The notes below the pieces were generated by a model, which saw nothing but the letters and a program-made list of their open reading frames with translations, was not told the origin of the DNA and did no database searches. Of a stretch of DNA of 64,000 nt, positions 557-50,090 are shown one piece after another (position 1 is the first letter of the stretch; each line of letters begins with the position of its first letter). This stretch comes from an uncultured Candidatus Saccharibacteria bacterium (lineage in GTDB: Bacteria; Patescibacteriota; Minisyncoccia; Phycocordibacterales; CSBR16-119). The translations under genes and the position numbers were made by a program. Location: positions 26,935 through 90,934 of the forward strand of contig CAZZCB010000001.1 in NCBI GenBank assembly GCA_964652835.1, written 5' to 3'.

Positions 557-589
557 AATTTATATATTTAAATTTTAATTTATAATATT

Positions 590-11010: not shown

Positions 11011-11016
11011 AATAGT

Positions 11017-11661: not shown

Positions 11662-11713
11662 TGGCTTTATTATACCAAGAAGATACGAAAAAAGTCTTTA
11701 AATGTTGTGAATT

Positions 11714-13789: not shown

Positions 13790-13790
13790 A

Positions 13791-14426: not shown

Positions 14427-14429
14427 AAA

Positions 14430-14909
14430 TTATTTTCTTTTATTCATATCTAAAACGTCTAAGCTCCATGAAATATCTTTTAATTTACCTTCTGTAAGAC
14501 GAGGAAGGGCCTCACCAGAGGTAGATTTTTCGATACGACTAGGTAAAACTTTTTCTTTTTTAGGAGCTCTTTGTTTCCAAATAAAAAGCTTACTTCTAAA
14601 AAAGTAATTCATAGAAGATTGCAGAACTTCAGAAAAATCTCTACCATTTACTTTGTAAAAAGTAAGGGCAAGAGCCAGCCCGACAACAACTAGAATCAAA
14701 GGTATGGCTATTAAAAGCGGTAAGACTTTTGATAAAACATAAGCTCCCCCGGCACCACCTAAAAGATATATGAACTGCTTAAAGGTAAAAGGACCGAAAA
14801 TCTTATCCTCTATTTCAATAAATTGTGGAACTTGAAATCGCATATACATAGTATACAGTATTCGGTATTTAGTATACAGTTTTAAACCAAAAATATTGTG
14901 GATGAACAA
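14430..14909 (-). CDS. PrgI-family (VirB3-like) small membrane protein
   Basis: RFQVPQFIEIEDKIFGPFTFKQFIYLLGGAGGAYVL plus a second TM. Typical PrgI layout directly upstream of VirB4. True start probably the internal Met about 20 codons in. Confidence 0.55.
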   Translation of the reverse strand: MFIHNIFGLKLYTKYRILYTMYMRFQVPQFIEIEDKIFGPFTFKQFIYLLGGAGGAYVLSKVLPLLIAIPLILVVVGLALALTFYKVNGRDFSEVLQSSMNYFFRSKLFIWKQRAPKKEKVLPSRIEKSTSGEALPRLTEGKLKDISWSLDVLDMNKRK

Positions 14910-14935
14910 AACCCCTTGCGGGGTTTTGTTTTATT
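14905..14935 (-). terminator. terminator between upstream operon and T4SS core operon
   Basis: aaaaccccttgcggggtttt hairpin with T-run. Confidence 0.6.
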
Positions 14936-15530
14936 CTATTGGTTCACGATATGGATCAAATTTTATTTCAGGTATTTTTATTACCCCTTCTTTTGCCATC
15001 ATCGCTGGAACACTCACGGGAACTTCTTTTGTTGAAGGCTCTGGCTCTGGGGTTTTTTCTACAACAGGCTCTGGGGCTTTAATTCTTTTATCTACAAAAG
15101 TTTCGATTGTTTTCTTTTCTGATTTTGGAGTATAACCATCTTCAACCTCAATCCCAGAGTAGTGAAGCTCGTCTTTTTCTTCGTCTGCCATTATTTCCCC
15201 AGCAGAAACTTTTTCATAGTGAAGTCGCAAAGCTTCTCTGATTTTTGAAAAAAGTCTCTCGTTTACCTGGTCAACAATATTCATAAGTTCATCGTCTGAA
15301 AGACCAATTCTTTTTTGAATATTTTCTGGATAGTCTTTTGGATGCTCGAGCCCTATCATGGTCAAAATAGTTTCAACAGAGAGAGTGTCGATGTCGTCTA
15401 TGTGCATTTTATGCTCGCGACCAATGTTAAAAATCGTTCGCTCCCAGTCCGACGCACGAATAGCTTCCCGCACCTCGGCTGGGATTTTCTTCATCTGCTC
15501 TTCTATTAACTTTTTTTGATTTTCATCCAT
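14931..15530 (-). CDS. hypothetical acidic protein
   Basis: ORF track only. Confidence 0.4.
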   Translation of the reverse strand: MDENQKKLIEEQMKKIPAEVREAIRASDWERTIFNIGREHKMHIDDIDTLSVETILTMIGLEHPKDYPENIQKRIGLSDDELMNIVDQVNERLFSKIREALRLHYEKVSAGEIMADEEKDELHYSGIEVEDGYTPKSEKKTIETFVDKRIKAPEPVVEKTPEPEPSTKEVPVSVPAMMAKEGVIKIPEIKFDPYREPIE

Positions 15531-15541
15531 ATATTTTTATT

Positions 15542-17707
15542 TTATATTGCACCTCCCCCTGGTGGCGGAGTGGCTGATGGCGGAGTGGCTGGCTTAGGTT
15601 TTTCATCCTCTTTTGCTAATTTTTTAGCAAGCTCTGAGAATTTTTCTGCATCACTCTTAGATGCTTTACCACTTCTTATATCGTTGGCTATTTCTTTATT
15701 ATCAACTCCCATCATCATGCCCCAGACATCTCTAGACGCCACAGCATCAGCAACAAGACCGCGTCTTTCTTTCTCTTCATCTTTAATAAAGTCTTCGTCT
15801 TTTTTCCTTCTAACCTCCTCTCCTTTTTTATCAATTTCTTTTAATTTTTTCTCTCTTTCTTCTGGAATTTCTTTGTTTAACCTTTTTTCAAGCTTATCTC
15901 TTTCTTCTGACTCGTCTTTATTTAACACACCCTTTTTTATAAGCTCGTCTAATCTTTCAGTAACCTCCTTTGTCTCTTCATCAAAACCACGCTTTATTTC
16001 GTTCTTCGTATCAAGTAGGGCAAACAATTCATCCTGCCTACGTTTACCAACAACCTTGTCTCTTTCTCTAAACGAAACAGATGATTGATCTTCTGCCATC
16101 TCAAGCTTTTCTTTTCGTTTGTCTTTTTCAAACTTGTCTCGACTTTCCGTGGATCCTTTTCCGAATGTCATTTTATCACCAGCAAAAGCTGTTGATGCCG
16201 GTTTTATAATGTTTTTACCCGCAAAACCAGCAACACCACCAACCGCACCACCTAGCATTTTTGACTTGTCGGCATTTCTGATATCAAAGCTACTTTTTTT
16301 CCAATTATTAAGACGATTTTTTGTACTCTGTAAGCTATATAATTCTTTTTGCAAAAGTCGTTTTTGTACAGGGTCGTCTGTATTTTTAAGAGCAGTTCTG
16401 GCTTCGGCAATACGAGCATTATAATTACCAGCCTTTAGAGCAGATGAAGCAAGTCCACCAACAACTTTCCTTCCCGCAAAAGCAGTCGCACCCAACGCAC
16501 CACCAGCCGCAACACCTGCGACCTTACCCACAATACTCTTAACCATACTGCCAAATTCCCCAGCCATACTGTCGGCTGTTTTCTTAGCTATTTGAAGCAA
16601 AACTATTATAAAAATAAACGGGATGAAAATCTTCATTAAGTTTGTAAAAATATCAGCACCCTCAGCTGGAACCGCTGGGCCTGTTCCAAAAATAGAAAGG
16701 AATGAAATCATTAAATAAAGGAAGAAGATAAAAATAGGGGCCATAAAAGCAAGCTTTAGAACTGTGTCTTTCCAAGTATCGAAACTCATTTGTTTTACGA
16801 GTCCTCCGCTTCCAGGTACGGCTAGTGTTATAAAAGCTATCGGAGAAAAAATCATCGAGAACCAAAGACCGATAACTCGCCCGACAAAAAGTAACGCCAC
16901 AGACACAAATGTCCACATAAGGAAACCGTTGACGATGACCATCAAAATAAATACCGCAAAAATAGTACCAGTCTTTTCAATTACGGGTGTAACTGTTCCT
17001 GTAAACTGACCTGTCTGAGTACTGTATTGACCAGAGGCGCTACTAGATCCAGACAAAAATATTGATGAACTGAGTAAATTTTGTGGATTTATTTTATCAA
17101 CAATACCAAAAGTTATTGATTTATAACCTTCTGCGTCTGCATAGGATTGATCATTTTCAATAACAATACTGTTGTAAAAAGCTCGGGCTAGAATATTACC
17201 TGCATCTATGACAACTTTTGTAAAAAAAAGTGAGAAGTTTAAAAGAAGAGCGACTATGATCAAAGTTGGAATATATTTTTTAGAACTTGAACCTAAAATA
17301 TGTCGTATTGCCAAATAAAGCAACGTAAAAATAAACGCCACGTTTGAGATATCTCGTATTAGCCCCCAACCTTTTATAATGAAATCTGAACGATAAGCAT
17401 TTGAATCTAGACTGTATCCCAAGAAAAAGTCTAAGATCTTTGCAGCAACTCCAACCAGCCAAAAAGATGGTTCTAAGATCACATTATAAAAAGCATAAAG
17501 TAAACAATTGGCAGAAAAAGGGTTAGACCAATTCGAGCAACCTTTTTCTACTGCGCTTTCTATATTTGTGTCTAGAACTAAGGAACCCTGATCTGTTGGC
17601 GCCCCTTGAGCAAAGGCCAAAGGCGCTGGAGACACAAAGTATCCAGAGAAAACTACAAATATTGAAGCTGCTAAAATTGCTATTTTTTTCATTATAGGCA
17701 AGACCAA
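15542..17707 (-). CDS. VirB6/TrbL-like polytopic membrane protein with long K/E-rich C-terminal tail
   Basis: Signal/TM followed by at least 6 hydrophobic helices. C-terminal 250 aa are charged low-complexity ending in PPSATPPPGGGAI. Confidence 0.5.
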   Translation of the reverse strand: MVLPIMKKIAILAASIFVVFSGYFVSPAPLAFAQGAPTDQGSLVLDTNIESAVEKGCSNWSNPFSANCLLYAFYNVILEPSFWLVGVAAKILDFFLGYSLDSNAYRSDFIIKGWGLIRDISNVAFIFTLLYLAIRHILGSSSKKYIPTLIIVALLLNFSLFFTKVVIDAGNILARAFYNSIVIENDQSYADAEGYKSITFGIVDKINPQNLLSSSIFLSGSSSASGQYSTQTGQFTGTVTPVIEKTGTIFAVFILMVIVNGFLMWTFVSVALLFVGRVIGLWFSMIFSPIAFITLAVPGSGGLVKQMSFDTWKDTVLKLAFMAPIFIFFLYLMISFLSIFGTGPAVPAEGADIFTNLMKIFIPFIFIIVLLQIAKKTADSMAGEFGSMVKSIVGKVAGVAAGGALGATAFAGRKVVGGLASSALKAGNYNARIAEARTALKNTDDPVQKRLLQKELYSLQSTKNRLNNWKKSSFDIRNADKSKMLGGAVGGVAGFAGKNIIKPASTAFAGDKMTFGKGSTESRDKFEKDKRKEKLEMAEDQSSVSFRERDKVVGKRRQDELFALLDTKNEIKRGFDEETKEVTERLDELIKKGVLNKDESEERDKLEKRLNKEIPEEREKKLKEIDKKGEEVRRKKDEDFIKDEEKERRGLVADAVASRDVWGMMMGVDNKEIANDIRSGKASKSDAEKFSELAKKLAKEDEKPKPATPPSATPPPGGGAI

Positions 17708-17768
17708 TTCACTATAATGAAATTATAACACTCTTCTTAAAAAGCGAAGATTTTTATTGTGTAAATCT

Positions 17769-20135
17769 TTAGTATAGAGACTGTAGATTATTTGCGAATA
17801 TCTCAGTTGTAACGGTTGGCACTGTAAATGTGAAATCATTGAATCCTGAAATATTGATTTCAGTGTTATCGTCCCCAAAGTTTATGTTATTTAAGAATCT
17901 ATCGGCGTTTACAGGTAGGTTGTTTCCAATAATGGTGTTTTCATATATGGATTGGAATGGATACTGAATTCTTTCATTTAATGCTGTATACCCCGTCGAA
18001 ACCTCACTTAAACAATCATTTATGTATCCATTGACTGCAAATATTTGAGAGGCGTAGTTTGAAACATTTGAGGTTACTTGATCTAACTGACCTTGACTAA
18101 CTATGGCGTTTTGATTATAGATATTATCTAAAAGAGACTCTATGACCTGCATTTCAGGACTATTTGGATCTCCTTGTTGTTCTGGGGTAAGAGATTCATA
18201 TTGAGAGAAAATGGCTTGTATTTGAGGTATAACAGGTATTAGGTTGTTAACTTGATTTTGTAGTATACCTATTTGAGTTTGGTAGCCTTCTATTTGTGAA
18301 AAATAGTTCGAGGCAACAGGTCTTATTGTTGGTGGAGCCTGGAGAGAAGAGTAATTTGCAAGAACCTCATTTCTATATTTAGTAAAAACAAAATTCATAA
18401 ACAAGCTAAACTGAGTGTAGTCAGGAACAATATATTCAGGAATAATAATTCCTGTAAGATCCTCAACAACGGCAGCGTAATAAACCCCGTCTCCACTCGG
18501 CGCAACTTCATTAATCATAGATTGTAAATTAATAGACGCAAATTCGTTCCATCTTGGATTTGGCCCAGGCACGCAATAATCTAGCGCTCTTATGTCTCTT
18601 ATTAAAGTTGAGATATTTTGTATAGCAGAGTTAGCTTGTATCAGATAAGATTGTTGTATTTCAAGTAAACCAGAATCTAGACCTTCTCCGTTTAAAACCT
18701 CGGAGACTGGTGGCTGGTTCGCGTTGGCTCCAAAATCTGGGTCGTTTGATTGCGCCCATAAAGCATTATAATTAGGGTCGTTTGGATTTGAGCTATATTG
18801 ACCGTCCGGTCTTTGAAAGGCCCTCAACCCTTGCTCAAACAACTGAGCCGCTAGTGTATCTAGTATTAGACCTAGGTTTTCATTAAATTCATCAGCAAGT
18901 TCAAGCCCCCTTAGAGGTGAACCCAGAGCCTGGCTAGTTTGTTCGGCAATAAATCTACCCGGGGTTACCGTCTCCCATTTTGCACAATTACTTCTGTTGA
19001 CGAAATAGTTATACATTTCTCTTTGAGCGTAGTCTCCCTCTACGTCCGAAAGTTCTGCTTGAACAGCCTCAGGAAGAAGCTCGATAACATCAGAAACGGT
19101 TCCGTTTGGACCCATTAAAGAGTAGCCCCCCATATGCATAGGGTCATTTCTGTCGAAATACACATCAGCAGGATCTCCTGTGTTTGTAAGCCTGCAAACT
19201 CTCTGGTTTAAAAGTCCACCAGCTTCATTTAACTCCTGCTGGAAATTTTCAACAATATTAATATCACTACCCGCTATTTGTCGAGAGAGATGGTTGTTTG
19301 CCATTATGTAGTTACCGAAAATATTATTGTTTGGTTGAGCAAAGGCTGTATATCCAGCCCACCCTCCAACACTAAATCTGGCTTGGAAGTTTTCATATGA
19401 GGCATATTGATTATTACTTTGAAGAACCTGGTTTAAAGAAAACCGCATATTGTCTTGAAGCCTGTTTTGAACAGTAAGCAATATTGTTTCAGATAGTATT
19501 CTTCCAAAAGGGTAGTCTTCTGGATTCATTGAAAACCAACCAGTAAAACTTACTATCTCGTCTTTTGCAATTTCTTCAAAAAAATTAGCCCTATCTTCTG
19601 GATAAAATGGATTTCCTTCAAACCCGCTGTTAATCCATTCAACGGTCATGAAGGTTATCTTATCAATAATCTTTAGAACAATAAACCGCGCGATAAGATC
19701 TAGACATTCCTCTTTAAAACTTTGTAGTGTTGTTTCAGTGTTAACTTTTCCCACCTCTGCCTGAACAGACGCCTTTACCGTCTCATCCACCACAGGAACT
19801 TTAGGTCCTGGGGTCACCCCCGAAGCTGCATCTGTTATATCTGTCCCAATAACAGCCTCACTTAATTCACCAACCCCGTCAACGACGGCGGCCTCACCTT
19901 TCTCAGACAATGCGGCAGCGGCTTTCGCCGCTTTTCTTTCTGCAAAAAATTTAGTACTGCAAGTCAAGGCAACCCCCGCAATACCTTGGATATTTAATCC
20001 CCCACTAGCATTTCCCCCACCACCAAAAAGCTGTGCTTCTGCCTTTGGTGTATGTGCGGAAAAAATTGAAACTAATAAAATAGTTACAACAAGGAAAGAG
20101 GATATTGTTTTTTTAAAAAAAGAAAAACTTTTCAT
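17769..20135 (-). CDS. large secreted Q/N/S-rich surface protein (788 aa)
   Basis: Signal peptide. No nucleotide-binding motifs. Adhesin-like composition. Confidence 0.5.
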   Translation of the reverse strand: MKSFSFFKKTISSFLVVTILLVSIFSAHTPKAEAQLFGGGGNASGGLNIQGIAGVALTCSTKFFAERKAAKAAAALSEKGEAAVVDGVGELSEAVIGTDITDAASGVTPGPKVPVVDETVKASVQAEVGKVNTETTLQSFKEECLDLIARFIVLKIIDKITFMTVEWINSGFEGNPFYPEDRANFFEEIAKDEIVSFTGWFSMNPEDYPFGRILSETILLTVQNRLQDNMRFSLNQVLQSNNQYASYENFQARFSVGGWAGYTAFAQPNNNIFGNYIMANNHLSRQIAGSDINIVENFQQELNEAGGLLNQRVCRLTNTGDPADVYFDRNDPMHMGGYSLMGPNGTVSDVIELLPEAVQAELSDVEGDYAQREMYNYFVNRSNCAKWETVTPGRFIAEQTSQALGSPLRGLELADEFNENLGLILDTLAAQLFEQGLRAFQRPDGQYSSNPNDPNYNALWAQSNDPDFGANANQPPVSEVLNGEGLDSGLLEIQQSYLIQANSAIQNISTLIRDIRALDYCVPGPNPRWNEFASINLQSMINEVAPSGDGVYYAAVVEDLTGIIIPEYIVPDYTQFSLFMNFVFTKYRNEVLANYSSLQAPPTIRPVASNYFSQIEGYQTQIGILQNQVNNLIPVIPQIQAIFSQYESLTPEQQGDPNSPEMQVIESLLDNIYNQNAIVSQGQLDQVTSNVSNYASQIFAVNGYINDCLSEVSTGYTALNERIQYPFQSIYENTIIGNNLPVNADRFLNNINFGDDNTEINISGFNDFTFTVPTVTTEIFANNLQSLY

Positions 20136-38996: not shown

Positions 38997-40913
38997 TTAG
39001 CGACGCTTGGGTCCACTGCTGGAACCACCGCTTTGCATCGCATTGCGAGCAGGTGCGGAATTGGTCCGCATTTGCTGCCGAGCAGGTTGCGACGGCCTGA
39101 CTGCCACTGGCTTAGTAGCCACTCGGGTGTTACCGCTAACAGTACGCACCTGATGATGTGTCCGAGAAGGACTAGCAGAAGGTCGCACACCTCCAGTGTT
39201 TCGGCTGACAGTTCCACCGTTCCGTGAAGGAGTGGTGTTACCGTAAACTTGACCCCGGTTTCCGTTCGCTCGAGGCTGTTTAGGAGGATTAACGCTCGGC
39301 TTCGTACCATAACCTGAAGGCTTGGTAGTCTGAGCAGTAGATCCACCATTCACACGCCCTTGGGGAGCGGTTTGCGGCTTTGCGGCAGGCTTAGTGCTTA
39401 CACCGGATGAACCTTGACGGTTCTCGGCGAAAGTTTCAGACGTGCCGCGTCCATTGGCACCAGCTGGTGCCTGCAGACCACCCCTGGGAGCCATAGGCTC
39501 TTTGCTGGGAGGAGCAGCTACCATATCCGGGGTTGAAGGAGGAAGCTTGATCGTGGGTTTGTTACCCTCGACAACCTTTCTATCAGCCACCGAACCGGTA
39601 GGGATGGAAGAAGGCAGAACCAAGGCTGGGACTTTACGCTCCGTCGTTACCGACGTTGCGAGTCCAACTTTAGTTTGACCTTCAGCCGAAGCTTTGGTCG
39701 ACTGAGTGAATGAGGTGGAGTTTCCGCCAAGCTCTGCCGAAGCAAGCTCAACATACTCCTCTTCAACGTTTCCTCCTGAGGTTACGGCAGATTTGCATCC
39801 GCCACAGCCGTCGTTGTAAACGTCCCCGTAGTAATTGTTGCTGACTGTGTAGCCAACACCACTACCAACCCAGTCGATCCCGACATGGCTGTAGCCATTC
39901 CACACAGAGGAACCACCGCTTACCCAACGATTAGGCATACAGCCGTAATAAGGAATGGATGGCATACAGCCGAAACCGTTACCAAATCCACCGCCGAAGC
40001 CGAAACCAACAGAGAAGCCTCCGCCGAAGCCACCTATTCCCCAGTTGTTACCGAAGCCTCCACCCCACATTGGTTGTGAGTAAAAGGGTTGCAACATCAC
40101 GGGATAGCCGTAGGCACCAGCACTACCGAGTGGCGCGCCGTTGCTGGCGTGCCGGTAGTAGTTCTGGCTATATCCAGCATAGTCTCCCATGCCGAACTTA
40201 TAACCATTGCGCTTGTTCGAAGCGGTAGGCTCCCACTCACCCTCAGCGTTCTTGCTGAAGATGAATGTCGGGTCCTTTTTGCGGTCACCGGCTTTGATAG
40301 CCTTAGGCGCATCAGGATCTTCGGTCTCCCACTTGTCTCCGTTCTTCTGATAGAAACGGTCTTCATGGAAGAACGACTTACCTTCCTCGACCCACTCGAT
40401 GTTGGCAACTTTCGTCGCGTCATCGCTGGTCTCGGAAAACCCTTTCTTTGCTTCAGCCAGAACATCTGGCATTTGCCCAGAAGGGGTGTACACTTTGATG
40501 ATCCGGCTCGTAGATCCCTCGTAAAGGGGTACTAAGAATTTCGGATCATCCACATCCACACCCAAACTGGGTGGAATGTAGAAAGGTACGGACAAGTCCG
40601 ACACCCACACAGAAAGCGTGGTATCAATGAGACGGTATTCGTTGGCGCCGTCCAAGAGGATGAAGTCACCCTCAAGATTCACAGGCTTAACGTGGCTCGG
40701 ATATCCGAACAGGACATCTTCCCACATCTCATCGTTCAGCATCTCCGGGGAGATACCTCCGGGAACCACCGAATTGGTGGCCTCCCATCCACTTGAGGCC
40801 AAAACGACCTCCTTTACAGCCTTCACCCACTCTTGCGAATGAGCGGAGGTTTGCGCGAGCAATGGCTGAGCCATTGCGCACACGAAGAGAATGACAAAGA
40901 TCAGATTTTTCAT
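38997..40913 (-). CDS. secreted Gly-rich protein (GFGGG/GNxW repeats, basic S/T/P-rich tail), high-GC island (about 60% GC)
   Basis: Signal peptide MKNLIFVILFVCAMAQPLLAQ. Central WGGGFGNNWGIGGFGGGFSVGFGFGGGFGNGFGC block. No SD. Confidence 0.6.
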   Translation of the reverse strand: MKNLIFVILFVCAMAQPLLAQTSAHSQEWVKAVKEVVLASSGWEATNSVVPGGISPEMLNDEMWEDVLFGYPSHVKPVNLEGDFILLDGANEYRLIDTTLSVWVSDLSVPFYIPPSLGVDVDDPKFLVPLYEGSTSRIIKVYTPSGQMPDVLAEAKKGFSETSDDATKVANIEWVEEGKSFFHEDRFYQKNGDKWETEDPDAPKAIKAGDRKKDPTFIFSKNAEGEWEPTASNKRNGYKFGMGDYAGYSQNYYRHASNGAPLGSAGAYGYPVMLQPFYSQPMWGGGFGNNWGIGGFGGGFSVGFGFGGGFGNGFGCMPSIPYYGCMPNRWVSGGSSVWNGYSHVGIDWVGSGVGYTVSNNYYGDVYNDGCGGCKSAVTSGGNVEEEYVELASAELGGNSTSFTQSTKASAEGQTKVGLATSVTTERKVPALVLPSSIPTGSVADRKVVEGNKPTIKLPPSTPDMVAAPPSKEPMAPRGGLQAPAGANGRGTSETFAENRQGSSGVSTKPAAKPQTAPQGRVNGGSTAQTTKPSGYGTKPSVNPPKQPRANGNRGQVYGNTTPSRNGGTVSRNTGGVRPSASPSRTHHQVRTVSGNTRVATKPVAVRPSQPARQQMRTNSAPARNAMQSGGSSSGPKRR

Positions 40914-44225: not shown

Positions 44226-44585
44226 ATGAAAACTTTTAAAGACTTAATTGTATGGCAGAAATCAATGGATCTTGTAAGGCTTGTTTATAAAACAACAAAA
44301 TCATTTCCTGCTGAAGAAAAATTTTCATTAACTAGTCAAATTCAAAGATCTGCAATATCGATACCTTCGAATATTGCAGAAGGAAAATTACGTAGGACAA
44401 ACAAAAATTTTATTCAGTTTTTATATATTTCTCTCGGCTCTTGTGCCGAACTAGAAACACAGATTATAGTCGCCAAAGATATCGGATATATAGAACCTGA
44501 TGATTTTGAAAAAATACAGACCGATATAAACGAGATTATGAAAATGATTACTGGATTAATTAAAAAACTAATGCCTAGCGCCTAA
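44226..44585 (+). CDS. four-helix-bundle protein (23S rRNA intervening-sequence protein family)
   Basis: LIVWQKSMDLV...IPSNIAEG...LYISLGSCAELETQ family pattern. Confidence 0.65.
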   Translation: MKTFKDLIVWQKSMDLVRLVYKTTKSFPAEEKFSLTSQIQRSAISIPSNIAEGKLRRTNKNFIQFLYISLGSCAELETQIIVAKDIGYIEPDDFEKIQTDINEIMKMITGLIKKLMPSA

Positions 44586-45147: not shown

Positions 45148-45169
45148 GCTCCGGACACGTGTCCGGAGC
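45148..45169. terminator. bidirectional terminator
   Basis: gctccggacacgtgtccggagc perfect hairpin. Confidence 0.65.
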
Positions 45170-45186: not shown

Positions 45187-45792
45187 TCACGATGCAATGA
45201 ATGCATCGACGGCCTTAAGCTTCGCAATTTCCACTTGCGAAACCGGCCCCACCAACTTCCCCGAAGTAAGTGTGCGCATTTTACCAAAACGACCAGTGTG
45301 AACGAACCTCTCTTCGTGACAGCGCAGAACATAACCGTCCCAATTGCCATCTTTAATGAGGTTCCAGTCGCGCTCAGTAATGAACACGCTCTCAATCGGA
45401 CCGTACAGCCACGCGATAGATATTTCAGGAAGTGGCGTTATCGGCCAAACTTTCCGAAAACCTGTCACGATAAATCCGTTCTCGGTCTTGAATCGGTTTC
45501 GGAAAGATCGAGCAGGAGCCATGTAGTCATCTTTACTATAGGGTATGGCTACCCACATAGATGCAACAGCGGCAACGTCCTCAAAATACTTACTACTTAA
45601 GACAACCATGTCGACCGGCACAGGGTGCTGGCAAGGAAGAAGTGCGACCCTCTCCTTAAACCATTCCTTGAGATCCATGGACCAATAACTGAGTGTCTCG
45701 GACAAGTTATCGGCGATTTCGAACTTTTTTTCGACATACATAAAAACTAAGACAATAATTGCAACGATGCAGATGATGGTCAAGGTTGTCAT
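45187..45792 (-). CDS. membrane-anchored hypothetical protein (moderately high GC); start set at MTTLTIICIV
   Basis: N-terminal TM anchor. ORF track gives 45187..45846 with an 18-codon N-extension. Confidence 0.45.
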   Translation of the reverse strand: MTTLTIICIVAIIVLVFMYVEKKFEIADNLSETLSYWSMDLKEWFKERVALLPCQHPVPVDMVVLSSKYFEDVAAVASMWVAIPYSKDDYMAPARSFRNRFKTENGFIVTGFRKVWPITPLPEISIAWLYGPIESVFITERDWNLIKDGNWDGYVLRCHEERFVHTGRFGKMRTLTSGKLVGPVSQVEIAKLKAVDAFIAS

Positions 45793-45868
45793 GTTTGCGG
45801 GGGTTGGTTGGTTTTTGTTTAAGGAACAGTGGCTAAATATAAACATATATTTAGCTATTAGTCAATAC

Positions 45869-45916
45869 TTCCACTCTTTGAAAACTCGAGCGAACTCAAG
45901 TCCTCAAAAGTGGAGC
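45869..45916. repeat. 48-bp palindromic intergenic element, copy 1 (CCACTCTTTGAAAA-N19-TCAAAAGTGGAG)
   Basis: Direct comparison with copies at 46632 and 47851. Confidence 0.8.
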
Positions 45917-45938
45917 CCTGTAAAAACAGAGCTACGCT

Positions 45939-46619
45939 TTATTGTTTTTTCAAATTTCTCAAATACCCTCCGTCTATTGGTATAACCATATTACTAATCA
46001 CGTTTTGATTCACTAACCAAAAAATAGATTCAGCCACTTCTTCCGGGTTTAAAATTCTGCTCCCTGGTGAATCTTTTAAAACCTGATTAAATTTTTTACC
46101 AAAACCTTGTCTTGAAAGACCTGTGTCAACAAGTCCTGGAGCAACGCAATTAATAAATACGTCTTTTATTTTCATTAATTCATTTTCAAGTTTTTCATGT
46201 ACATCTTTTTCAAAAGAATAGTCTTTATTATCAGGAAGAAAAGTATACAGAGATCCAACCGCGCAAACATGACTTACGTTATTTGTTTTCAGCAATTCTT
46301 TTATTATTTGAACCCCGCCCAATTTTATTTCTTTATATAGTTTTTTATATTCTTTTGTTTTATCTTGAGAAAAAATTCCAGCGCAATGTATTATTTTTGA
46401 AATATTATATTTTTCTAATTTTTTAACCAACTCTTCTCTTTCTTTGTTTTTAGAAATATCGCATTGTATAAATTCAATATTTCCAAACACAGAAGCAAGG
46501 TCTCCTTTGTTTTCATTTCTACCAACAACAATAACCTCATTATCTTTTGATAATATTTTTGCTGTTTGGAAACCTATACCAGACGTTCCTCCTAAAATTA
46601 GTATTTTATTATTTTTCAT
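45939..46619 (-). CDS. SDR-family short-chain dehydrogenase/reductase
   Basis: ILILGGTSGIGFQTA (TGxxxGxG) and downstream Y/K catalytic region. Low GC, unlike flanking genes. Confidence 0.8.
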   Translation of the reverse strand: MKNNKILILGGTSGIGFQTAKILSKDNEVIVVGRNENKGDLASVFGNIEFIQCDISKNKEREELVKKLEKYNISKIIHCAGIFSQDKTKEYKKLYKEIKLGGVQIIKELLKTNNVSHVCAVGSLYTFLPDNKDYSFEKDVHEKLENELMKIKDVFINCVAPGLVDTGLSRQGFGKKFNQVLKDSPGSRILNPEEVAESIFWLVNQNVISNMVIPIDGGYLRNLKKQ

Positions 46620-46631
46620 ATATTTAAGTTA

Positions 46632-46679
46632 TTCCAATCTTTGAAAAATCAAATTTCTTTAATTTCTCAAAATTGGAGC
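46632..46679. repeat. 48-bp palindromic intergenic element, copy 2 (CCAATCTTTGAAAA-N19-TCAAAATTGGAG), fused to a GC hairpin 46673-46697
   Basis: Compensatory CCACT-to-CCAAT and AGTGG-to-ATTGG changes relative to copy 1. Confidence 0.8.
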
Positions 46680-46723
46680 CGACGAGTTTTCGTCGGCTCG
46701 AACTTCTTAGGCGCCGCTTAGTC

Positions 46724-47776
46724 CTACGAATCGTAGTGCCAAGCAGCGTCGAACACGGGTATCAAGAAATGTTTGCCAGACATCTTGTGCATCCGCGCCA
46801 ATTTCACAGCAACCGCAAACCCAGCCCTTCCTGTGCGACCAAACTCCGACAACGCTTCGTGGTGAAAGTCGTCCCACTTCACAACCCACTCACTTTTATC
46901 TGCCGGCTTAAAGCCAACAGATTCAATGAAGAGTTGATCTACGTAGTCGCTTGTCACCAATCCAACACCGTCGAGTAGTGGTATTGCCACATCAAGTGCG
47001 GGCATGGAAAAGGTGGTGTGAGAAGGTGATGATCCGGGTAAGTCATGTCGCAAAAACATGTCTGGGTTGATTCCAAAAATCCTTTCGTACTTCCCAGGAG
47101 GATAGTATTTGCGGTGAGCATTGCCAGATGCCACAGATTCAAACCCGAACACTTTCGATTGGGGAAAGAGTGACTTGAACCCGGTTGCCATGGGAAGTGC
47201 CGTGGTGCCATTACCCAAAGGGCAAATGACCACATCCGGTCGAATACCGGCTTCGACGACTTCTTCGACGAAGGGACGGAACGCATTAGTCGCAGCGTTG
47301 TTAATCGAAATTCCTCTCCCGAATATGTCACCCATCGCGTGGTTGATATATTTAGTTTCGGGATGTTTAGCAAGAAAAGCCTTGATAAACTCTGGGAATC
47401 CGTTCACGTACGCTTCGGCTGGCGTGAGGATAAGCTCCCCGCCAGCTTCTTCGATCGCCCGCTCACGAGCCTTCTCACCACCAGCAGGCACTGCGATCTT
47501 GATATTGTAACCAAGAGCAGTGGCAACTGCGGCTGCGGCACGTCCGCCACTGCCCGAAGTGGTTTCCAGAAGCGTGTCACCTGGCTTGATGAGGCCGAGG
47601 CACTCTTTCAAGTAGATGAGCTTCAGGAACACTCGGGAATAGTGGCACTCACCGTACGGCAACTTGTAGTCAAGTTTGAAGTGGTAAGTGTTACCCTCAA
47701 ACTCAATGGTTTCGATTGGCGAATTGCGGACTTCAGACATCATGCGTGTGTAGAGGTTTTTGCGCTGAGTGTTCAT
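46724..47776 (-). CDS. cysteine-synthase-like (PLP fold-type II) protein lacking the Schiff-base lysine, paralog 1
   Basis: Aligns along its length to CysK (TSGSGGRAAAAVATALGY, GEKARERAIE, LGNGTT). The SVKxR lysine motif is replaced by ECHYSR. About 52% GC. Confidence 0.7.
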   Translation of the reverse strand: MNTQRKNLYTRMMSEVRNSPIETIEFEGNTYHFKLDYKLPYGECHYSRVFLKLIYLKECLGLIKPGDTLLETTSGSGGRAAAAVATALGYNIKIAVPAGGEKARERAIEEAGGELILTPAEAYVNGFPEFIKAFLAKHPETKYINHAMGDIFGRGISINNAATNAFRPFVEEVVEAGIRPDVVICPLGNGTTALPMATGFKSLFPQSKVFGFESVASGNAHRKYYPPGKYERIFGINPDMFLRHDLPGSSPSHTTFSMPALDVAIPLLDGVGLVTSDYVDQLFIESVGFKPADKSEWVVKWDDFHHEALSEFGRTGRAGFAVAVKLARMHKMSGKHFLIPVFDAAWHYDS

Positions 47777-47790
47777 GATGGTTTATGTTA

Positions 47791-47809
47791 TGTGTTAGGC
47801 CTAAACACA
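47791..47809 (-). promoter_or_regulatory. 19-nt palindrome TGTGTTTAGGCCTAACACA, 14 nt upstream of the paralog-1 ATG
   Basis: Identical element with identical spacing upstream of paralog 2. Confidence 0.6.
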
Positions 47810-47850
47810 CAACATAAATTAATTTATATTTTTAAAAGAACTAAATATAT

Positions 47851-47897
47851 CTCCACTCTTTGAAAATTCCACCGAGGTGAAATTCTCAAAAGTAGAG
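47851..47897. repeat. palindromic intergenic element, copy 3 (CCACTCTTTGAAAA-N19-TCAAAAGTAGAG)
   Basis: The G-to-A change in the right arm gives a G-U wobble only if the element is transcribed from the minus strand. Confidence 0.8.
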
Positions 47898-48002
47898 ACA
47901 AGACCTTAGCCTTGTCTACTTTGGGTTGTTCGTCTCACGACGATCTTCAGTTTTAGGGGACCTTAGCTCCCTAACCAGAGGTTAGTCTGTCTGTGACTTT
48001 GA

Positions 48003-49103
48003 CTAGCTTTGTTTGGTTTTTTCCGTCTGCTCCCACCAGCTGTCGTAGCGGTTCGCGTGATCGTAGGCGACTATCAGGTAGTTTTGACCCTCGGTTTCCC
48101 GTGCCAAATTTTCTGCCACCTTATAGCCAGCCCAGGTCGTTCGACCGAAGGTCTTGAGCTCATTTGGGATGCCGGTGTCGAACACTATGGCATCTTTTGG
48201 GGGCTCTTGACCCGTGATCTCGGTGTACTCCCTGAGAGTGCTTGAATCCCAGACCAACTTCTCTGCTGCGAGAAGTGGCAAGGAAGCCTCCAGAGCGGGC
48301 ACATCGAAATGCACTCGGTAGCTCGTACCTGGCAACCTATGCCTTGAGAACTCTCCGCGTTGCGACAGGTTCATCCCGAACTCTTCTTCGAAGCGTCCAG
48401 GATAAAGTTTGTCGTACACGAAACCACTCTCAAAACTTTCGGCTCCAACGATCTTGACCGAAGGACACAACTCCTTGATCCTGCGACCATATCCGTTCTG
48501 GGTTGTCCCATTACCGGATATTGCCACAAAGACATCAGGGGTCACGTTCTCCATGTCGCGCAACGCTTCGTCTACCACGTTGGCACAGGCGGCCATCGCC
48601 TCTTCGTTCACCATGGGCACTTTCCCTTCCAGGACCATGCTGTGGTTAAAGAAGAAACAATCCCTATTTTTCGCAAGGAACTTCCTTGAGAAAACGGGTG
48701 CGCCGTCAACGTAAGCCAGAGAGTCAGTGAGGTGCAGTTGGTGTGAAGGAATCCACTCCAAGATTGCACGCTCACGAGCTTTTTCACCATCGGCAGGCAT
48801 CGCAACCTCGCACACATACCCGAGTTGGGCAGCGAGCGAAGCCATTGCGATGCCAGCGCTTCCACTGGTGAAATCGTAGACTCTTTGACCCGGCTTGATC
48901 AAACCCTTCTCTTCGAAGTGCTTGAACAAAGCCAAGTAGATACGGACATAGTGGTTGAAACCAGGAGCATTTTCACACTCGAGCTTCACAAACAACTTGT
49001 TCCCGTTGGGGAGCACGTTATTCATTTCCACTAATCGCGTGTTAGAGGTTTTCACCTCGAGGCGAGAGTAGAGTTGGGCGCGCTGAGTGTTCATGGGGTT
49101 CAT
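48003..49103 (-). CDS. cysteine-synthase-like protein lacking the Schiff-base lysine, paralog 2
   Basis: Same fold (TSGSAGIAMASLAAQLGY, GEKARERAILE, SGNGTT). SVKxR replaced by FNHYVR. Start set at ATG 49103 (MNPMNTQR). The ORF track starts at an upstream GTG (49136) inside the leader palindrome. Confidence 0.7.
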   Translation of the reverse strand: MNPMNTQRAQLYSRLEVKTSNTRLVEMNNVLPNGNKLFVKLECENAPGFNHYVRIYLALFKHFEEKGLIKPGQRVYDFTSGSAGIAMASLAAQLGYVCEVAMPADGEKARERAILEWIPSHQLHLTDSLAYVDGAPVFSRKFLAKNRDCFFFNHSMVLEGKVPMVNEEAMAACANVVDEALRDMENVTPDVFVAISGNGTTQNGYGRRIKELCPSVKIVGAESFESGFVYDKLYPGRFEEEFGMNLSQRGEFSRHRLPGTSYRVHFDVPALEASLPLLAAEKLVWDSSTLREYTEITGQEPPKDAIVFDTGIPNELKTFGRTTWAGYKVAENLARETEGQNYLIVAYDHANRYDSWWEQTEKTKQS

Positions 49104-49116
49104 GGGGTTAGGGTTA

Positions 49117-49135
49117 TGTGTTAGGCCTAAACACA
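49117..49135 (-). promoter_or_regulatory. 19-nt palindrome TGTGTTTAGGCCTAACACA, 14 nt upstream of the paralog-2 ATG
   Basis: See 47791..47809. Confidence 0.6.
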
Positions 49136-49188
49136 CAACCGAAACCTTTTCTGAAACTGAATCTTTTCGATGAACAACTTTCTGGACA

Positions 49189-49218
49189 TATCATAGCAGG
49201 TTTTGTCAATCTTGTCAA
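49189..49218 (-). promoter_or_regulatory. sigma70 promoter (tandem TTGACA TTGACA -18- TGcTATGAT) for the cysK-like pair
   Basis: Minus strand reads TTGACAagaTTGACAaaacctgcTATGAT. Confidence 0.55.
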
Positions 49219-49328: not shown

Positions 49329-50090
49329 ATGGAAGATAAATTAAAAAGGCTAGGACTTACAGATAATGAAATAAAGGTGTATTTGTGTGTTCTTGAAAAC
49401 ACTAAAATAACCCCAGCAATGATTGCTCGAAAAACAGGCGTAACCCGCCCTACCTCCTACGGAGTAGGTAAATCTCTGGTAGAAAAAGGCTTTATTTTAG
49501 CCGACGAGCTCAGTCCAACGCTGTATTTCGTCGCCCTGCCCCCAGAAAACATAATAAAGTCTGTAAAAAAAGAAAGGCTTGAAATAGAAGAAAAGATAAA
49601 AATAGCAGAAGAGCTGAGTGCGGAGCTTTTATCTGTGCCAAAATCTAAAAACTATTCTGTGCCAAAAGTCAGATTTATAGACGAACACAGCTTTAAAGAC
49701 TTTATGTATGAAAGAGCTCCCGTTTGGAACAGCTCCGGACTTGCCGGCGACGGCACATGGTGGGGTTTCCAAGATCATGGACTTATAGACTATATTCCAG
49801 ACTGGTTTAAATGGTATTTTGATTTTTCTGCAGGGAAAATTAAATCAAACCTCATAACAAACGCCGAAGAAAGTGTGATGATTGGCGACAAGCTGCACGA
49901 GAAATATGAAAGACGGGCTAAATATTGGGCTGGTGCGGATAAAATAAAAGTTACGTATTCTGTTTTAGGTGACTTTGTTTTTATTGCAAACACACAAAGT
50001 AAGCCACACTATGTGGTGGAAATCCACGACGCTGTGATAGCTGAAAATATGCGACAAATCTTTAAGGGCTTTTGGGAGATGTTGCCTTAA
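49329..50090 (+). CDS. TrmB-family HTH transcriptional regulator
   Basis: N-terminal LGLTDNEIKVYLCVLENTKITPAMIARKTGVTRPTSYGVGKSLVEKGFI winged-helix region typical of TrmB. Divergent from the cysK-like pair. Confidence 0.55.
   Translation: MEDKLKRLGLTDNEIKVYLCVLENTKITPAMIARKTGVTRPTSYGVGKSLVEKGFILADELSPTLYFVALPPENIIKSVKKERLEIEEKIKIAEELSAELLSVPKSKNYSVPKVRFIDEHSFKDFMYERAPVWNSSGLAGDGTWWGFQDHGLIDYIPDWFKWYFDFSAGKIKSNLITNAEESVMIGDKLHEKYERRAKYWAGADKIKVTYSVLGDFVFIANTQSKPHYVVEIHDAVIAENMRQIFKGFWEMLP

What the first reader, a model, noticed from the sequence alone, without database searches (positions are those of the whole stretch)
45869..47897. Three copies of a 48-bp palindromic intergenic element with compensatory substitutions, one after each gene of a cassette-like array
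Element: CCA(C/A)TCTTTGAAAA – exactly 19 nt variable spacer – TCAAAA(G/T)T(G/A)GAG. Copy 2 has CCACT-to-CCAAT matched by AGTGG-to-ATTGG, a fully compensated base pair. Copy 3 has a G-to-A change that stays paired (G-U) only in RNA made from the minus strand, the coding strand of all four genes. Along the minus strand the order is: cysK-like 2 – element – cysK-like 1 – element (fused to a GC terminator hairpin) – SDR gene – element – membrane-protein gene. The low-GC SDR gene is thus bracketed by two direct copies, between high-GC genes. The covariation points to a functional RNA hairpin on the operon transcript (processing, stability or termination site, or protein-binding motif). The one-element-per-gene arrangement also resembles attC-like cassette boundaries.
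Basis: seen in the sequence. Interest (0 to 1): 0.6.

Follow-up and report, generated by a model that had tools for sequence, protein, structure and literature searches.

The report
Intercistronic hairpin module in Patescibacteria operons
The three repeats are real: each is a ~20-bp RNA hairpin fused to a terminator-like GC hairpin, sitting between genes of one operon in a candidate-phyla-radiation bacterium. The same undescribed module recurs in about 20 related assemblies and most likely splits or stabilises the operon's mRNA; it is not an integron site.

Summary
Observation confirmed. Three copies lie at 45871-45915, 46634-46678 and 47853-47897, where chance predicts none. The "19-nt spacer" is really the upper stem plus a tetraloop of one ~20-bp hairpin (B).

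B belongs to a family of 41 copies (39 distinct) in Patescibacteria assemblies:
- 98-99.8% of positions pair, and 6-10 of 19 pairs show double compensatory changes.
- Two G·U wobbles never vary; 22 of 41 loops are GNRA or YNMG; 40 of 41 copies fold better on the coding strand.
- Wherever an upstream gene could be called, it is co-oriented with B.

B is only half the unit. A variable GC-rich hairpin (A), shaped like a weak intrinsic terminator, abuts it, and A's short U-tract forms B's 5' arm. The operons themselves end in ordinary terminators.

Best reading: an intercistronic RNA module, a leaky terminator plus a hairpin that forms only on read-through. It probably acts in processing or stability, like lambda tI/sib or the rpsO-pnp RNase III site. 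The mechanism is inferred, not shown.

It is not an attC site: the R boxes are absent and no integrase lies in 64 kb. Even so, coding sequences are swapped between conserved modules in related genomes. There is no Rfam match.

The parts
47852..47896 (-). Hairpin B, copy 3 (between PALP2 and PALP1); loop CUCG
   Evidence: Pattern hit. Minus-strand RNA fold -29.9 kcal/mol, z -6.9. Covariance model 69.7 bits on the sense strand, 33.4 on the antisense.
47897..47921 (-). Hairpin A of module 3 (AGACAAGGCUAAGGUCUUGUCU) with the upstream AAAGU box. It is terminator-like, and its U-tract CUACUUUU is the 5' arm of B.
   Evidence: The scan flags it as terminator-like.
47922..48002 (-). Conserved ~85-nt 3' UTR ('type I') between the PALP2 stop codon and module 3. 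It includes the hairpin UCGUC-GUGA-GACGA.
   Evidence: Aligns with L144, L145, L159, L213, L214 and L220. It sits behind unrelated upstream genes.
46633..46677 (-). Hairpin B, copy 2 (between PALP1 and SDR); loop GAAA; outer stem CCAAU/AUUGG
   Evidence: 70.8 bits on the sense strand.
46678..46706 (-). Hairpin A of module 2 (GAGCCGACG-AAAA-CUCGUCGGCUC) with the upstream AAGAAGUUC purine box
   Evidence: Homology with L144 resumes exactly at this box.
45870..45914 (-). Hairpin B, copy 1 (between SDR and the membrane-protein gene); loop UUCG
   Evidence: 72.2 bits on the sense strand.
45915..45938 (-). Hairpin A of module 1 (AGCUCUG-UUUU-UACAGGGCU) with the upstream AAAG box
45836..45865 (-). 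Promoter-like site (TTGACT-18-TATATT). It lies inside a 34-nt insertion that is absent from L144, between B copy 1 and the shared CA-rich leader.
45148..45169 (-). Canonical intrinsic terminator (GCUCCGGACACGUGUCCGGAGC followed by UUUUUCUU) that closes the operon
   Evidence: Equivalent terminators close the arrays in L144, L190, L214 and L220.
49190..49218 (-). Best promoter-like site of the operon (TTGACA-17-TG-TATGAT, 11 of 12 matches), in the divergent region shared with the TrmB gene
48003..49136 (-). PALP-family enzyme, type 2 ('cysK-like 2'); GC 0.52
   Evidence: Pfam PF00291; paralogue typing.
46724..47776 (-). PALP-family enzyme, type 1 ('cysK-like 1'); GC 0.51; 39% identical to type 2
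45939..46619 (-). Short-chain dehydrogenase (SDR); GC 0.286
   Evidence: The subfamily is small and always sits in TrmB-PALP-SDR loci.
45187..45846 (-). Variable last gene of the operon: a 219-aa ORF with no Pfam family. The probable start is the ATG at 45792, after the CA-rich leader.
   Evidence: It is replaced by different genes in L144, L220 and L213.
49329..50090 (+). Divergent TrmB-family regulator gene. A TrmB gene lies next to B-carrying arrays in at least 11 loci.

Best explanation
**What it is.** The element is the conserved half of a two-hairpin cis-acting RNA module. The module sits in the intercistronic spacers of accessory operons in Patescibacteria.

**Anatomy, read on the sense strand.**
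1. A purine box (RAAG).
2. A variable GC-rich hairpin A.
3. A short U-tract, YACUUUU. Items 1-3 together have the shape of a weak intrinsic terminator.
4. Hairpin B, which starts 0-1 nt after A. The U-tract itself forms B's 5' arm, so B can only form once the polymerase has read through.

**Proposed working (inferred).**
- Transcripts that stop at A end in an ordinary protective 3' hairpin.
- Read-through transcripts fold B, a ~20-bp duplex of the size RNase III-type enzymes cut.
- Cleavage or protection at B then separates the fates of the upstream and downstream cistrons. Each gene gets its own 3' cap (A) and its own structured 5' end followed by a standard CA-rich leader.

**Consequence for genome evolution.** Because these modules and leaders are conserved, they also act as fixed frames between which coding sequences are exchanged among related genomes.

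**Shown versus inferred.** Shown: the structure, its strand, its position and its family. Inferred: leaky termination, nuclease cleavage and the effect on expression.
For: **Structure is selected on the sense strand.**
- 99.8% of 494 cells pair and 6 of 19 pairs carry double changes. The slid-register controls collapse to 32-61% paired.
- In the extended set, 98.4% of cells pair and 10 of 19 pairs carry double changes.
- Two wobble pairs, G·U and U·G, are present in all 39 distinct copies.
- 18 GNRA and 4 YNMG tetraloops occur among 41 copies. Mean folding energy is -19.8 kcal/mol on the sense strand and -11.1 on the antisense, and 40 of 41 copies are more stable on the sense strand.

**Position.**
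- Every copy is intergenic.
- The upstream gene is on the same strand wherever one could be called.
- The model match starts mostly 15-45 nt after a stop codon (longer behind the conserved type I 3' UTR); where a co-directional gene follows closely, its ATG lies about 10-70 nt downstream.

**Tandem architecture.**
- Hairpin A ends 0-1 nt before B in about 30 of 33 modules.
- When the RNA is truncated at the U-tract, the purine box pairs with YACUUUU around A in 33 of 40 modules.
- In a relative without B (L217), the orthologous PALP-to-SDR spacer holds a plain terminator, AAAGUAGCG...CGCUACUUUUUAU.

**Not the operon's end signal.** The arrays finish with canonical GC-stem plus U-run terminators.

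**Operon context.**
- A strong promoter-like site lies upstream of the first gene.
- The TrmB | PALP | ... | SDR unit is conserved in L144, L159, L213-L215, L217-L219 and L220.
- B lies in the PALP-to-SDR interval in L144, L159, L213, L214 and L220. A remote variant B' occupies all three spacers of L215, at 16.6-18.5 bits in the sense orientation.

**Precedent.** RNase III cutting 5'-UTR and intercistronic hairpins, and changing the half-lives of flanking messages, is documented for E. coli pnp and others (PMC5371410).
Against: - There are no expression data. Termination at A, cleavage of B and any effect on the flanking genes are all untested.
- A's U-tract is short (4 U, starting 3 nt after the stem), so it may not terminate at all.
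- B's lower stem and the two wobble pairs are conserved at the sequence level. That is more than a generic RNase III or stability hairpin needs, and it hints at a specific partner that has not been identified.
- An RNase III gene was not looked for in this genome.
- Between the window and L144, the free apex positions of orthologous copies differ at 25 of 30 sites. Four-fold sites of the neighbouring genes differ at only about 34%. This model does not explain such rapid turnover.
- The sense strand is probably also the lagging-strand template: dnaA and dnaN are on the same strand at 59-62 kb, and the + strand GC skew is negative. Strand asymmetry therefore does not by itself exclude a single-stranded-DNA hairpin.
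Confidence: 0.55

Rival explanations
1. B is the binding site of a dedicated sequence-specific RNA-binding factor, such as a translational repressor, an antitermination or processing factor, or a lineage-specific nuclease. On this view it is not a generic double-stranded-RNA substrate.
For: - The lower-stem sequence UUUUGAG...UUUUCAAAG is nearly invariant and the two wobble pairs never vary, even in copies found by the model rather than by the search pattern.
- Only three apex pairs and the loop vary freely.
- The remote B' variant in L215 differs coherently in all three of its copies, as expected if it co-evolved with a partner.
Against: - No candidate protein co-occurs in every locus. TrmB is frequent, but it is a DNA-binding winged-helix protein.
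- Part of the invariance is ascertainment, because the database patterns fixed those bases.
- One distant copy (L213:12773) replaces UUUUGAG/UUUUCAAAG with UUCUGAG/CCUCAGAG and keeps the pairing.
Confidence: 0.15
2. B (or A+B) is a DNA-level recombination site. It would fold as a single-stranded hairpin, be used by an unidentified site-specific recombinase, and define mobile gene cassettes, analogous to attC.
For: - There is one module per gene.
- GC content is mosaic: 0.29 against 0.51.
- Homology between the window and L144 breaks exactly at the 3' end of B.
- The same ~150-nt module follows non-homologous genes in different genomes. The modules are 72-91% identical while the upstream proteins are about 36% identical or unrelated.
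- The array is more similar between the window and L144 than the flanking core genes are.
- The apex is reshuffled between orthologous copies.
Against: - There are no attC R or L boxes and no unpaired central spacer.
- No integrase or transposase was found among the 61 window ORFs scanned against Pfam. None appears in the Pfam-annotated loci that carry B.
- The right-hand boundaries of replaced segments are not at B. They lie just upstream of the next module, leaving relics of the previous gene's last codons. This fits homologous or illegitimate replacement rather than site-specific exchange.
- PALP and SDR are conserved partners.
- The bias towards RNA-type tetraloops also argues against it.
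Confidence: 0.1
3. The module is simply a transcription terminator. Each gene would be its own transcription unit, and B would be an accessory part of the terminator.
For: - A has an A-tract, a GC stem and a U-tract.
- The scan lists module 3's hairpin A as terminator-like.
- A promoter-like site follows module 1 in the window.
- L217 has a plain terminator at the orthologous position.
Against: - The U-tract is only 4 U and is displaced by 3 nt.
- No U-run follows B.
- The gaps to the next start codon are 10-45 nt in many cases and hold no promoter-like hexamers. The window's promoter-like site lies in a lineage-specific 34-nt insertion.
- These genomes use canonical long-U terminators at array ends.
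- A plain terminator gives no reason for B's 3' arm to be conserved and to covary.
Confidence: 0.1
4. It is a selfish REP- or MITE-like repeat that spreads on its own and has no role for the host genes.
For: - It is a short palindromic repeat with several copies per genome.
- The module is found behind unrelated genes.
Against: - The orientation is co-directional with the upstream gene wherever one could be called.
- It is kept at orthologous positions in several genomes.
- Copy number is low: 3 in 64 kb, all in one operon.
- No terminal duplications were seen in the flanks printed.
- It is absent from IMG/VR and from the phage and plasmid collections.
Confidence: 0.06
5. It is a double-stranded DNA operator for the neighbouring TrmB-family regulator.
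For: - A TrmB gene lies next to B-carrying arrays in at least 11 loci.
- B has inverted-repeat arms, CCACT...AGTGG.
Against: - The sites lie downstream of genes, not at promoters.
- The half-sites are about 35 bp apart.
- The wobble asymmetry, tetraloops and self-complementary apex have no meaning in duplex DNA.
Confidence: 0.03

Closest known systems
Phage lambda tI/sib retroregulation of int (established knowledge; recalled, not tested here)
   Same: A terminator is combined with sequence beyond it. Transcripts that stop at the terminator carry a protective hairpin. Read-through transcripts can fold an additional long duplex that includes the terminator region and becomes an RNase III target.
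   Different: - In lambda, the read-through duplex is an extension of the same stem. Here it is a separate second hairpin that uses the U-tract as its 5' arm.
- Lambda has one site. Here the module is repeated between most genes of several operons and forms a conserved sequence family.
- Cleavage is unproven here.
Intercistronic and 5'-UTR RNase III hairpins (E. coli rpsO-pnp, rnc leader, phage T7 early mRNA sites)
   Same: - A hairpin about two helical turns long with a small bulge, lying between cistrons.
- In rpsO-pnp it lies just after a leaky terminator.
- T7 has one site per gene.
- RNase III cleavage there changes the half-lives of the flanking messages (PMC5371410).
   Different: - Those sites share shape but little sequence. 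B has a nearly invariant lower stem and two fixed wobble pairs.
- The hosts here are Patescibacteria.
- No cleavage data exist.
REP/BIME extragenic palindromes of enterobacteria
   Same: Imperfect palindromes 35-50 nt long in operon spacers. They can protect upstream mRNA from 3' exonucleases and set differential expression within operons.
   Different: - REPs number in the hundreds per genome, occur in both orientations and in inverted pairs, and are tied to RAYT transposases.
- B has few copies, is always in the sense orientation, and is always fused to hairpin A.
Integron attC sites
   Same: - A hairpin-forming element follows each gene in a same-strand array.
- The base is conserved and the apex is variable.
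- Sequences are homogeneous within a lineage and drift between lineages.
- Neighbouring genes differ in GC content.
   Different: - There are no R''/R' (RYYYAAC/GTTRRRY) or L boxes.
- There are no extrahelical-base or central-spacer features.
- There is no IntI or attI.
- Replaced segments are not bounded by B on both sides.
Neisseria 'minimal mobile elements' and Correia elements (recalled, not tested here)
   Same: - Genes are swapped between conserved flanking sequences, presumably by homologous recombination in naturally transformable bacteria.
- Correia repeats are co-transcribed and cut by RNase III.
   Different: - The flanks here are ~70-150-nt RNA modules rather than whole conserved genes.
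- Correia elements are mobile, have terminal inverted repeats and target duplications, and occur in both orientations.

Membership tests
Integron attC site | Conserved R'' (RYYYAAC) at the 5' end and R' (GTTRRRY) at the 3' end of the site | tested here: not met
   The three copies and the 26-sequence alignment end in CYAC...GUGGA and contain no AAC...GTT boxes.
Integron attC site | Folded structure with an unpaired central spacer, L boxes with extrahelical bases, and a variable terminal structure | tested here: not met
   B is a continuous 19-24-bp stem with a single bulged base and a 3-5-nt loop. Only the variable apex resembles an attC site.
Integron attC site | An integron integrase (IntI) and attI at the head of the array, or at least a tyrosine recombinase nearby | tested here: not met
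   Pfam scans of 61 window ORFs find no integrase or transposase. The array head carries a TrmB regulator gene and a sigma-70-like promoter.
Integron attC site | Array content varies freely between strains, with boundaries at the sites | tested here: inconclusive
   Two segments differ between the window and L144, and their left boundaries fall at the 3' end of B. Their right boundaries lie upstream of the next hairpin A, and PALP and SDR are conserved partners in nine further loci.
Intrinsic (Rho-independent) terminator | GC-rich stem-loop followed immediately by a run of U, often with an upstream A-tract | tested here: inconclusive
   Hairpin A has the GC stem, and its purine box pairs with YACUUUU in 33 of 40 modules. 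However, it has only 4 U, starting 3 nt after the stem. B itself has no U-run after it. The operon's real end at 45148-45169 is canonical.
RNase III substrate | About 20 bp or more (two turns) of mostly Watson-Crick duplex RNA | tested here: met
   The predicted stems average 19.3 bp, including an average of 3.8 wobble pairs, and some copies add 1-4 base pairs at the base. This is prediction only.
RNase III substrate | Cleavage by RNase III in vivo or in vitro | not testable with these tools
   No transcript-end data or enzyme assay is available.
REP/BIME | High copy number dispersed through the genome, in both orientations and often as inverted pairs | tested here: not met
   The window has 3 copies in 64 kb, all in one operon. 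The next-best model hits in the window have E above 0.1. All 41 copies are co-oriented with the upstream gene where one is callable.
REP/BIME | Association with a RAYT (TnpA-REP) transposase | tested here: inconclusive
   None lies in the window or in the annotated loci. Whole genomes could not be searched.
MITE | Terminal inverted repeats flanked by target-site duplications, with presence/absence polymorphism of the bare element | tested here: not met
   No flanking direct repeats were seen in the flanks printed. Copies are retained at orthologous positions in the window, L144, L213, L214 and L220.
Any Rfam 15 family | A match at or above the family's gathering score | tested here: not met
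   Only tRNAs reach gathering score in the window and in 17 related loci. The best sub-threshold hits over the elements (snoZ175, twister-P3) have E of 2-4.

The most novel reading that the evidence does not exclude
The A+B module, together with the standard CA-rich leader, is a lineage-specific 'gene socket'. A hairpin recognised by a dedicated but still unidentified factor would make each coding sequence an autonomous, exchangeable expression unit. Patescibacteria would then shuffle accessory genes between such sockets, an integrase-less functional analogue of an integron. The unusually fast, fully compensated turnover of the hairpin apex would be part of the mechanism, for example as an address or as an anti-recombination feature.
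Probability: 0.12. Interest if true: 0.8.

Novelty: new variant of a known kind. Interest (0 to 1): 0.5.

Why it matters
Patescibacteria (the candidate phyla radiation) are mostly uncultivated, and almost nothing is known about how they control their mRNAs.

- **A usable motif.** This is a well-supported structured RNA motif that is absent from Rfam. It has a clear position rule (between co-directional genes, fused to a terminator-like hairpin) and a covariance model that can be run over all MAGs.
- **A testable question.** It makes one question about these organisms directly testable: do they punctuate polycistronic mRNAs by leaky termination plus duplex processing?
- **A marker for exchanged genes.** It marks a set of horizontally exchanged accessory operons (TrmB | PALP | SDR and small secreted proteins). 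In these, coding sequences are swapped between conserved non-coding frames. This bears on how very small genomes renew their accessory genes.
- **A possible tool.** If the module insulates neighbouring cistrons, it could serve as a natural part for expression constructs in the newly tractable Saccharibacteria.

Tried and rejected
**Searches that found nothing**
- Rfam at gathering score and at permissive E-values found nothing for the elements, the flanks, 17 related loci, or the Ro60-adjacent copy.
- blastn of the 4.1-kb array against the phage and plasmid collections gave no match.
- IMG/VR scans: the loose pattern gave only chance or coding hits, none with the hairpin. The strict pattern gave none.
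- Literature searches (attC, integron or TrmB with Patescibacteria or Saccharibacteria; conserved intergenic stem-loops) found nothing describing this motif.

**Ideas considered and dropped**
- *Integron:* rejected on box consensus, structure and the absence of an integrase.
- *DNA-uptake sequence:* rejected, because there are only three clustered copies in 64 kb.
- *DGR accessory hairpin* (a bAvd-like gene lies at 44226-44585): no reverse transcriptase was found among the scanned window ORFs, and that gene is a conserved core neighbour in relatives.
- *Y-RNA or Ro60 link:* one divergent copy lies 95 nt downstream of a TROVE/Ro60 gene in L140. No Y RNA model matches it and the other loci lack Ro60, so Ro60 was treated as cargo.
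- *Recent tandem duplication of cysK:* rejected. The proteins are 39% identical and belong to two paralogue types.
- *Promoter inside B:* no consistent hexamers at workable spacing. The only good promoter-like site after a module lies in a window-specific insertion.
- *Self-cleaving ribozyme:* the only hint was a twister-P3 hit at E = 2.3 over one copy.

**Caveats on my own data**
- My crude ORF caller mis-assigned some downstream genes. The orientation analysis was redone with a non-overlapping ORF set.
- The MAG labels (Saccharibacteria versus Paceibacterota) may overstate phylogenetic breadth. Several loci share the dnaA/TyrRS/PBP/RuvC neighbourhood with the window.


Full report
**1.

None of 100 dinucleotide-preserving shuffles gave a match. 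The repeat finder groups the copies as one family.

The genes are all on the minus strand:

| Gene | Coordinates | GC |
|---|---|---|
| PALP-family enzyme (type 2) | 48003-49136 | 0.52 |
| PALP-family enzyme (type 1) | 46724-47776 | 0.51 |
| Short-chain dehydrogenase (SDR) | 45939-46619 | 0.286 |
| 219-aa ORF, no Pfam family | 45187-45846 | 0.47 (measured over 45187-45792) |

One element lies in each of the three spacers.

The copies are not assembly artefacts. Three independent Logan assemblies carry copies 1 and 2 identically. Independent assemblies of relatives carry copies in the equivalent spacers of the same operon.

**2. What the element looks like as RNA**

On the minus (coding) strand each copy folds into one long hairpin of 19-24 bp with a single bulged base. 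The loops are UUCG, GAAA and CUCG. Folding energies are -18 to -30 kcal/mol, with z-scores of -4 to -7. On the plus strand the folds are much weaker, at -10 to -17 kcal/mol.

Its variation is itself compensated.

**3. It is a family**

- *Genome scan.* One scan of 185,579 species genomes with a pattern anchored on the conserved bases returned 51 stretches. Eighteen matches, in 13 loci from 9 MAGs, fold into the full hairpin. All 9 MAGs are labelled Candidatus Saccharibacteria, Paceibacterota or Patescibacteria group. The other matches, in unrelated taxa, do not fold this way.
- *Metagenome scan.* This added six copies on four contigs.
- *Viral scans.* IMG/VR gave none.
- *Covariance model.* Model R1, built from 26 distinct copies, scores about 70 bits on the sense strand and about 30 on the antisense. 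It found further divergent copies in the same loci. With loci reached through SDR homologues the total is 41 copies, 39 of them distinct.

Covariation results:

| Measure | MAFFT alignment | Model-fitted alignment |
|---|---|---|
| Cells forming standard pairs | 99.8% of 494 | 98.4% |
| Pairs with changes on both sides | 6 of 19 | 10 of 19 |
| Shuffles reaching the observed scores | 0 (paired %, covariation score) to 2 (double-change pairs) of 500 | 0 of 500 |
| Paired when the register is slid | 32-61% | not quoted here |

Other signs of selection on the sense strand:
- Seventy-eight cells are G·U wobbles and only one is a mismatch.
- Two wobbles, G·U and U·G, are present in every copy.
- Eighteen loops are GNRA and four are YNMG, out of 41. 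By my own estimate, about 3% and 6% would be expected at random.
- 40 of 41 copies fold better on the sense strand.

Caveats:
- The database patterns fixed the lower-stem bases, so their invariance is partly ascertainment.
- The sequences are related.
- The MAG labels may exaggerate breadth, because several loci share the window's dnaA/TyrRS/PBP/RuvC neighbourhood.

**4. Position and orientation**

- Every copy is intergenic.
- Wherever a flanking gene can be called, the gene that ends upstream is on the same strand.
- The model match begins mostly 15-45 nt after the stop codon, and about 100-130 nt after it behind the conserved type I 3' UTR.
- The next gene is usually co-directional. Where it follows closely, its ATG lies about 10-70 nt downstream.

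**5. The element is half of a larger unit**

- In about 30 of 33 modules, a GC-rich hairpin A (7-10 bp, variable sequence, itself showing compensated variants) ends 0-1 nt before B.
- A purine box (RAAG, e.g. GAAGAAG or AAAGUGG) lies upstream of A.
- If the RNA is cut off at the U4 tract, this box pairs with YACUUUU on the far side of A in 33 of 40 modules. That is the A-tract / GC stem / U-tract layout of an intrinsic terminator, though with a short and slightly displaced U-run.
- The same YACUUUU is the 5' arm of B. The full-length RNA is predicted to fold as A-core plus B.
- In L217-L219, more distant relatives without B, the orthologous PALP-to-SDR spacer holds a plain terminator, AAAGUAGCG...CGCUACUUUUUAU.
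- In L215 all three spacers of the operon hold an A-type hairpin fused to a divergent B'. With filters off, the model detects B' at 16.6-18.5 bits, full length and in the sense orientation.
- The operons end in canonical terminators with long U-runs. Examples are window 45148-45169, L144, L190, L214 and L220.
- The best promoter-like site of the region lies upstream of the first gene, at 49190-49218.

The modules are therefore internal to a polycistronic unit and are not its terminator.

**6. Genomic setting**

- The window is chromosomal and close to the origin. It carries dnaA, dnaN, ruvA/B/C-type genes, PNPase, TyrRS, a PBP, NusA, trigger factor and a T4SS-like cluster.
- No integrase or transposase was found among the 61 window ORFs scanned against Pfam.
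- A TrmB-family regulator gene lies next to B-carrying arrays in the window, L144, L155 (twice), L173, L125, L153, L140, L213, L214 and L220.
- TrmB | PALP | ... | SDR is a conserved unit.

**7. Cassette-like behaviour, but not an integron**

*Window against L144:*
- The core genes TrmB and YebC are about 70% identical, and their four-fold sites are 38-44% identical.
- PALP2 and SDR inside the array are about 90% identical, and their four-fold sites are 66-67% identical. The array was therefore shared more recently than the surrounding chromosome.
- Two segments are replaced. The gene after module 3 is PALP1 in the window and an unrelated 190-aa ORF in L144.
- The last gene is a membrane-like ORF in the window and a small lipoprotein-like ORF in L144. 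It is a periplasmic binding protein in L220, and a second TrmB plus about 5 kb of small genes with three more modules in L213.

*Where the boundaries fall:*
- The left boundaries lie at the 3' end of B or at the start codon after a shared CA-rich leader.
- The right boundaries lie just upstream of the next purine box or hairpin A.

*The module is portable:*
- The ~150-nt 'type I' 3' UTR plus A plus B is 72-91% identical between genomes.
- It follows PALP type 2 in the window and L144, PALP type 1 in L159 and L214 (about 36% identical to type 2), and a radical-SAM gene in L145.
- In L159, L214 and L145 it begins with a relic of the last codons of PALP type 2.

*What this means:* coding sequences are exchanged while the non-coding modules stay. 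This fits homologous or illegitimate replacement between conserved frames.

*Against attC membership:* the R and L boxes, the central spacer and extrahelical bases, and an integrase are all absent.

*One unexplained point:* the three free apex pairs and the loop of orthologous copies differ at 25 of 30 positions between the window and L144. That is far more than the four-fold sites differ. The same apex variants recur at other positions and in other genomes.

**8. Most likely mechanism**

*Shown:* a sense-strand RNA structure under selection, always intercistronic, fused to a terminator-like hairpin whose U-tract it sequesters.

*Inferred:*
1. A acts as a leaky terminator or 3' cap for the upstream cistron.
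2. B forms only on read-through RNA. As a ~20-bp duplex it is a substrate for RNase III-type processing or a barrier to exonucleases.
3. The neighbouring cistrons thereby acquire separate stabilities.

This logic is known from lambda tI/sib, from rpsO-pnp and from the T7 early RNase III sites. RNase III effects on flanking messages are documented in PMC5371410.

I put about 0.8 on 'cis-acting RNA element of the operon transcript' and about 0.35 on the specific termination-plus-RNase III scheme. The reported confidence of 0.55 is for the combined statement.

*Rivals:* a dedicated RNA-binding partner, a single-stranded-DNA recombination site, a plain terminator, a selfish repeat, and a TrmB operator. 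They are listed with the results that would refute each.

**9. Novelty**

No Rfam 15 family matches. There was no match in the phage or plasmid collections, and no paper in the searchable library describes the motif.

The kind of element is familiar: an intercistronic stem-loop next to a terminator. What is new is the fixed tandem architecture, the strongly conserved hairpin with two invariant wobbles, its restriction to Patescibacteria accessory operons, and its role as a frame for gene replacement.

I rate it a new variant of a known kind, with interest 0.5.

Noticed in passing
window 47787-47813 and 49113-49139 (minus-strand sense): A near-perfect palindrome, GUUGUGUGUUUAGGCCUAACACAUAAC, sits about 10-20 nt upstream of the start codon of both PALP paralogues. 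It also precedes the PALP genes of L144, L213 and L220. It could be the TrmB operator or a leader hairpin.
   Followed up: partly
window 47922-48002; L144 2195-2281; L145 1005-1090; L159 6956-7045; L214 9855-9940; L220 515-600: A conserved ~85-nt 3' UTR with two small hairpins (one with a GUGA loop) shows little covariation. In L159, L214 and L145 it starts with a relic of the last codons of PALP type 2, although the gene upstream is different.
   Followed up: partly
window 45939-49103 versus L144 1103-3730: The array genes are much more alike than the flanking core genes. Four-fold sites are 66-67% identical in the array and 38-44% in the flanks. This indicates recent exchange of the array between lineages.
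   Followed up: yes
B apex (upper stem + loop, inside 45870-45914, 46633-46677, 47852-47896) versus L144 2299-2349, 2986-3036, 3756-3806: The upper stem and loop of orthologous hairpins are almost completely replaced (25 of 30 free positions), always with compensation. The same apex variants recur elsewhere: the window copy 2 apex equals the apex of the first L144 copy and of L125. This is unexplained.
   Followed up: partly
L215 9100-9151, 9915-9968, 10738-10791: A remote variant of the module occupies all three spacers of the orthologous operon: an A-type hairpin fused to UCAAUYCUCAGGAAUAUAU...AUGUAUUUCUAARGAUUGA. The model detects it only with filters off.
   Followed up: partly
L140 4445-6052 and 4301-4350: A Ro60/TROVE-vWA gene is one of the cargo genes of a B-punctuated array. 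A divergent B without the bulge lies 95 nt downstream of it. No Y RNA model matches.
   Followed up: partly
window 45826-45868: A 34-nt AT-rich insertion, absent from L144, carries a good promoter-like site (TTGACT-18-TATATT). It lies between hairpin B copy 1 and the shared CA-rich leader of the last gene.
   Followed up: partly
downstream of B in many loci (e.g. L141 596-625, L144 3807-3843, window 45793-45825): Two recurrent SD-less leader types follow B ahead of unrelated genes: ACGUACAUUCACAAAA... and (CAG)UUCUUUAAAACAAAAACCAACCCCC...AUG.
   Followed up: no
window 38997-40913: A 638-aa ORF with GC 0.54 (window mean 0.38) has no Pfam family. It looks like another foreign island, but it has no hairpin module nearby.
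   Followed up: no
window 8517-20135: A T4SS-like cluster on the minus strand includes a T4SS pilin domain, a TraG/VirB4-type P-loop ATPase, a PrgI-family protein and several large ORFs without families.
   Followed up: no
window 580-786: Three tandem copies of a 69-nt unit, 80-100% identical, lie at the left edge of the window.
   Followed up: no
window 44226-44585: A gene for a 23S-rRNA-intervening-sequence / bAvd-like four-helix-bundle protein lies between ruvB and yebC. It is conserved at this position in L144, L213 and L214, and no reverse transcriptase was found among the scanned window ORFs.
   Followed up: partly
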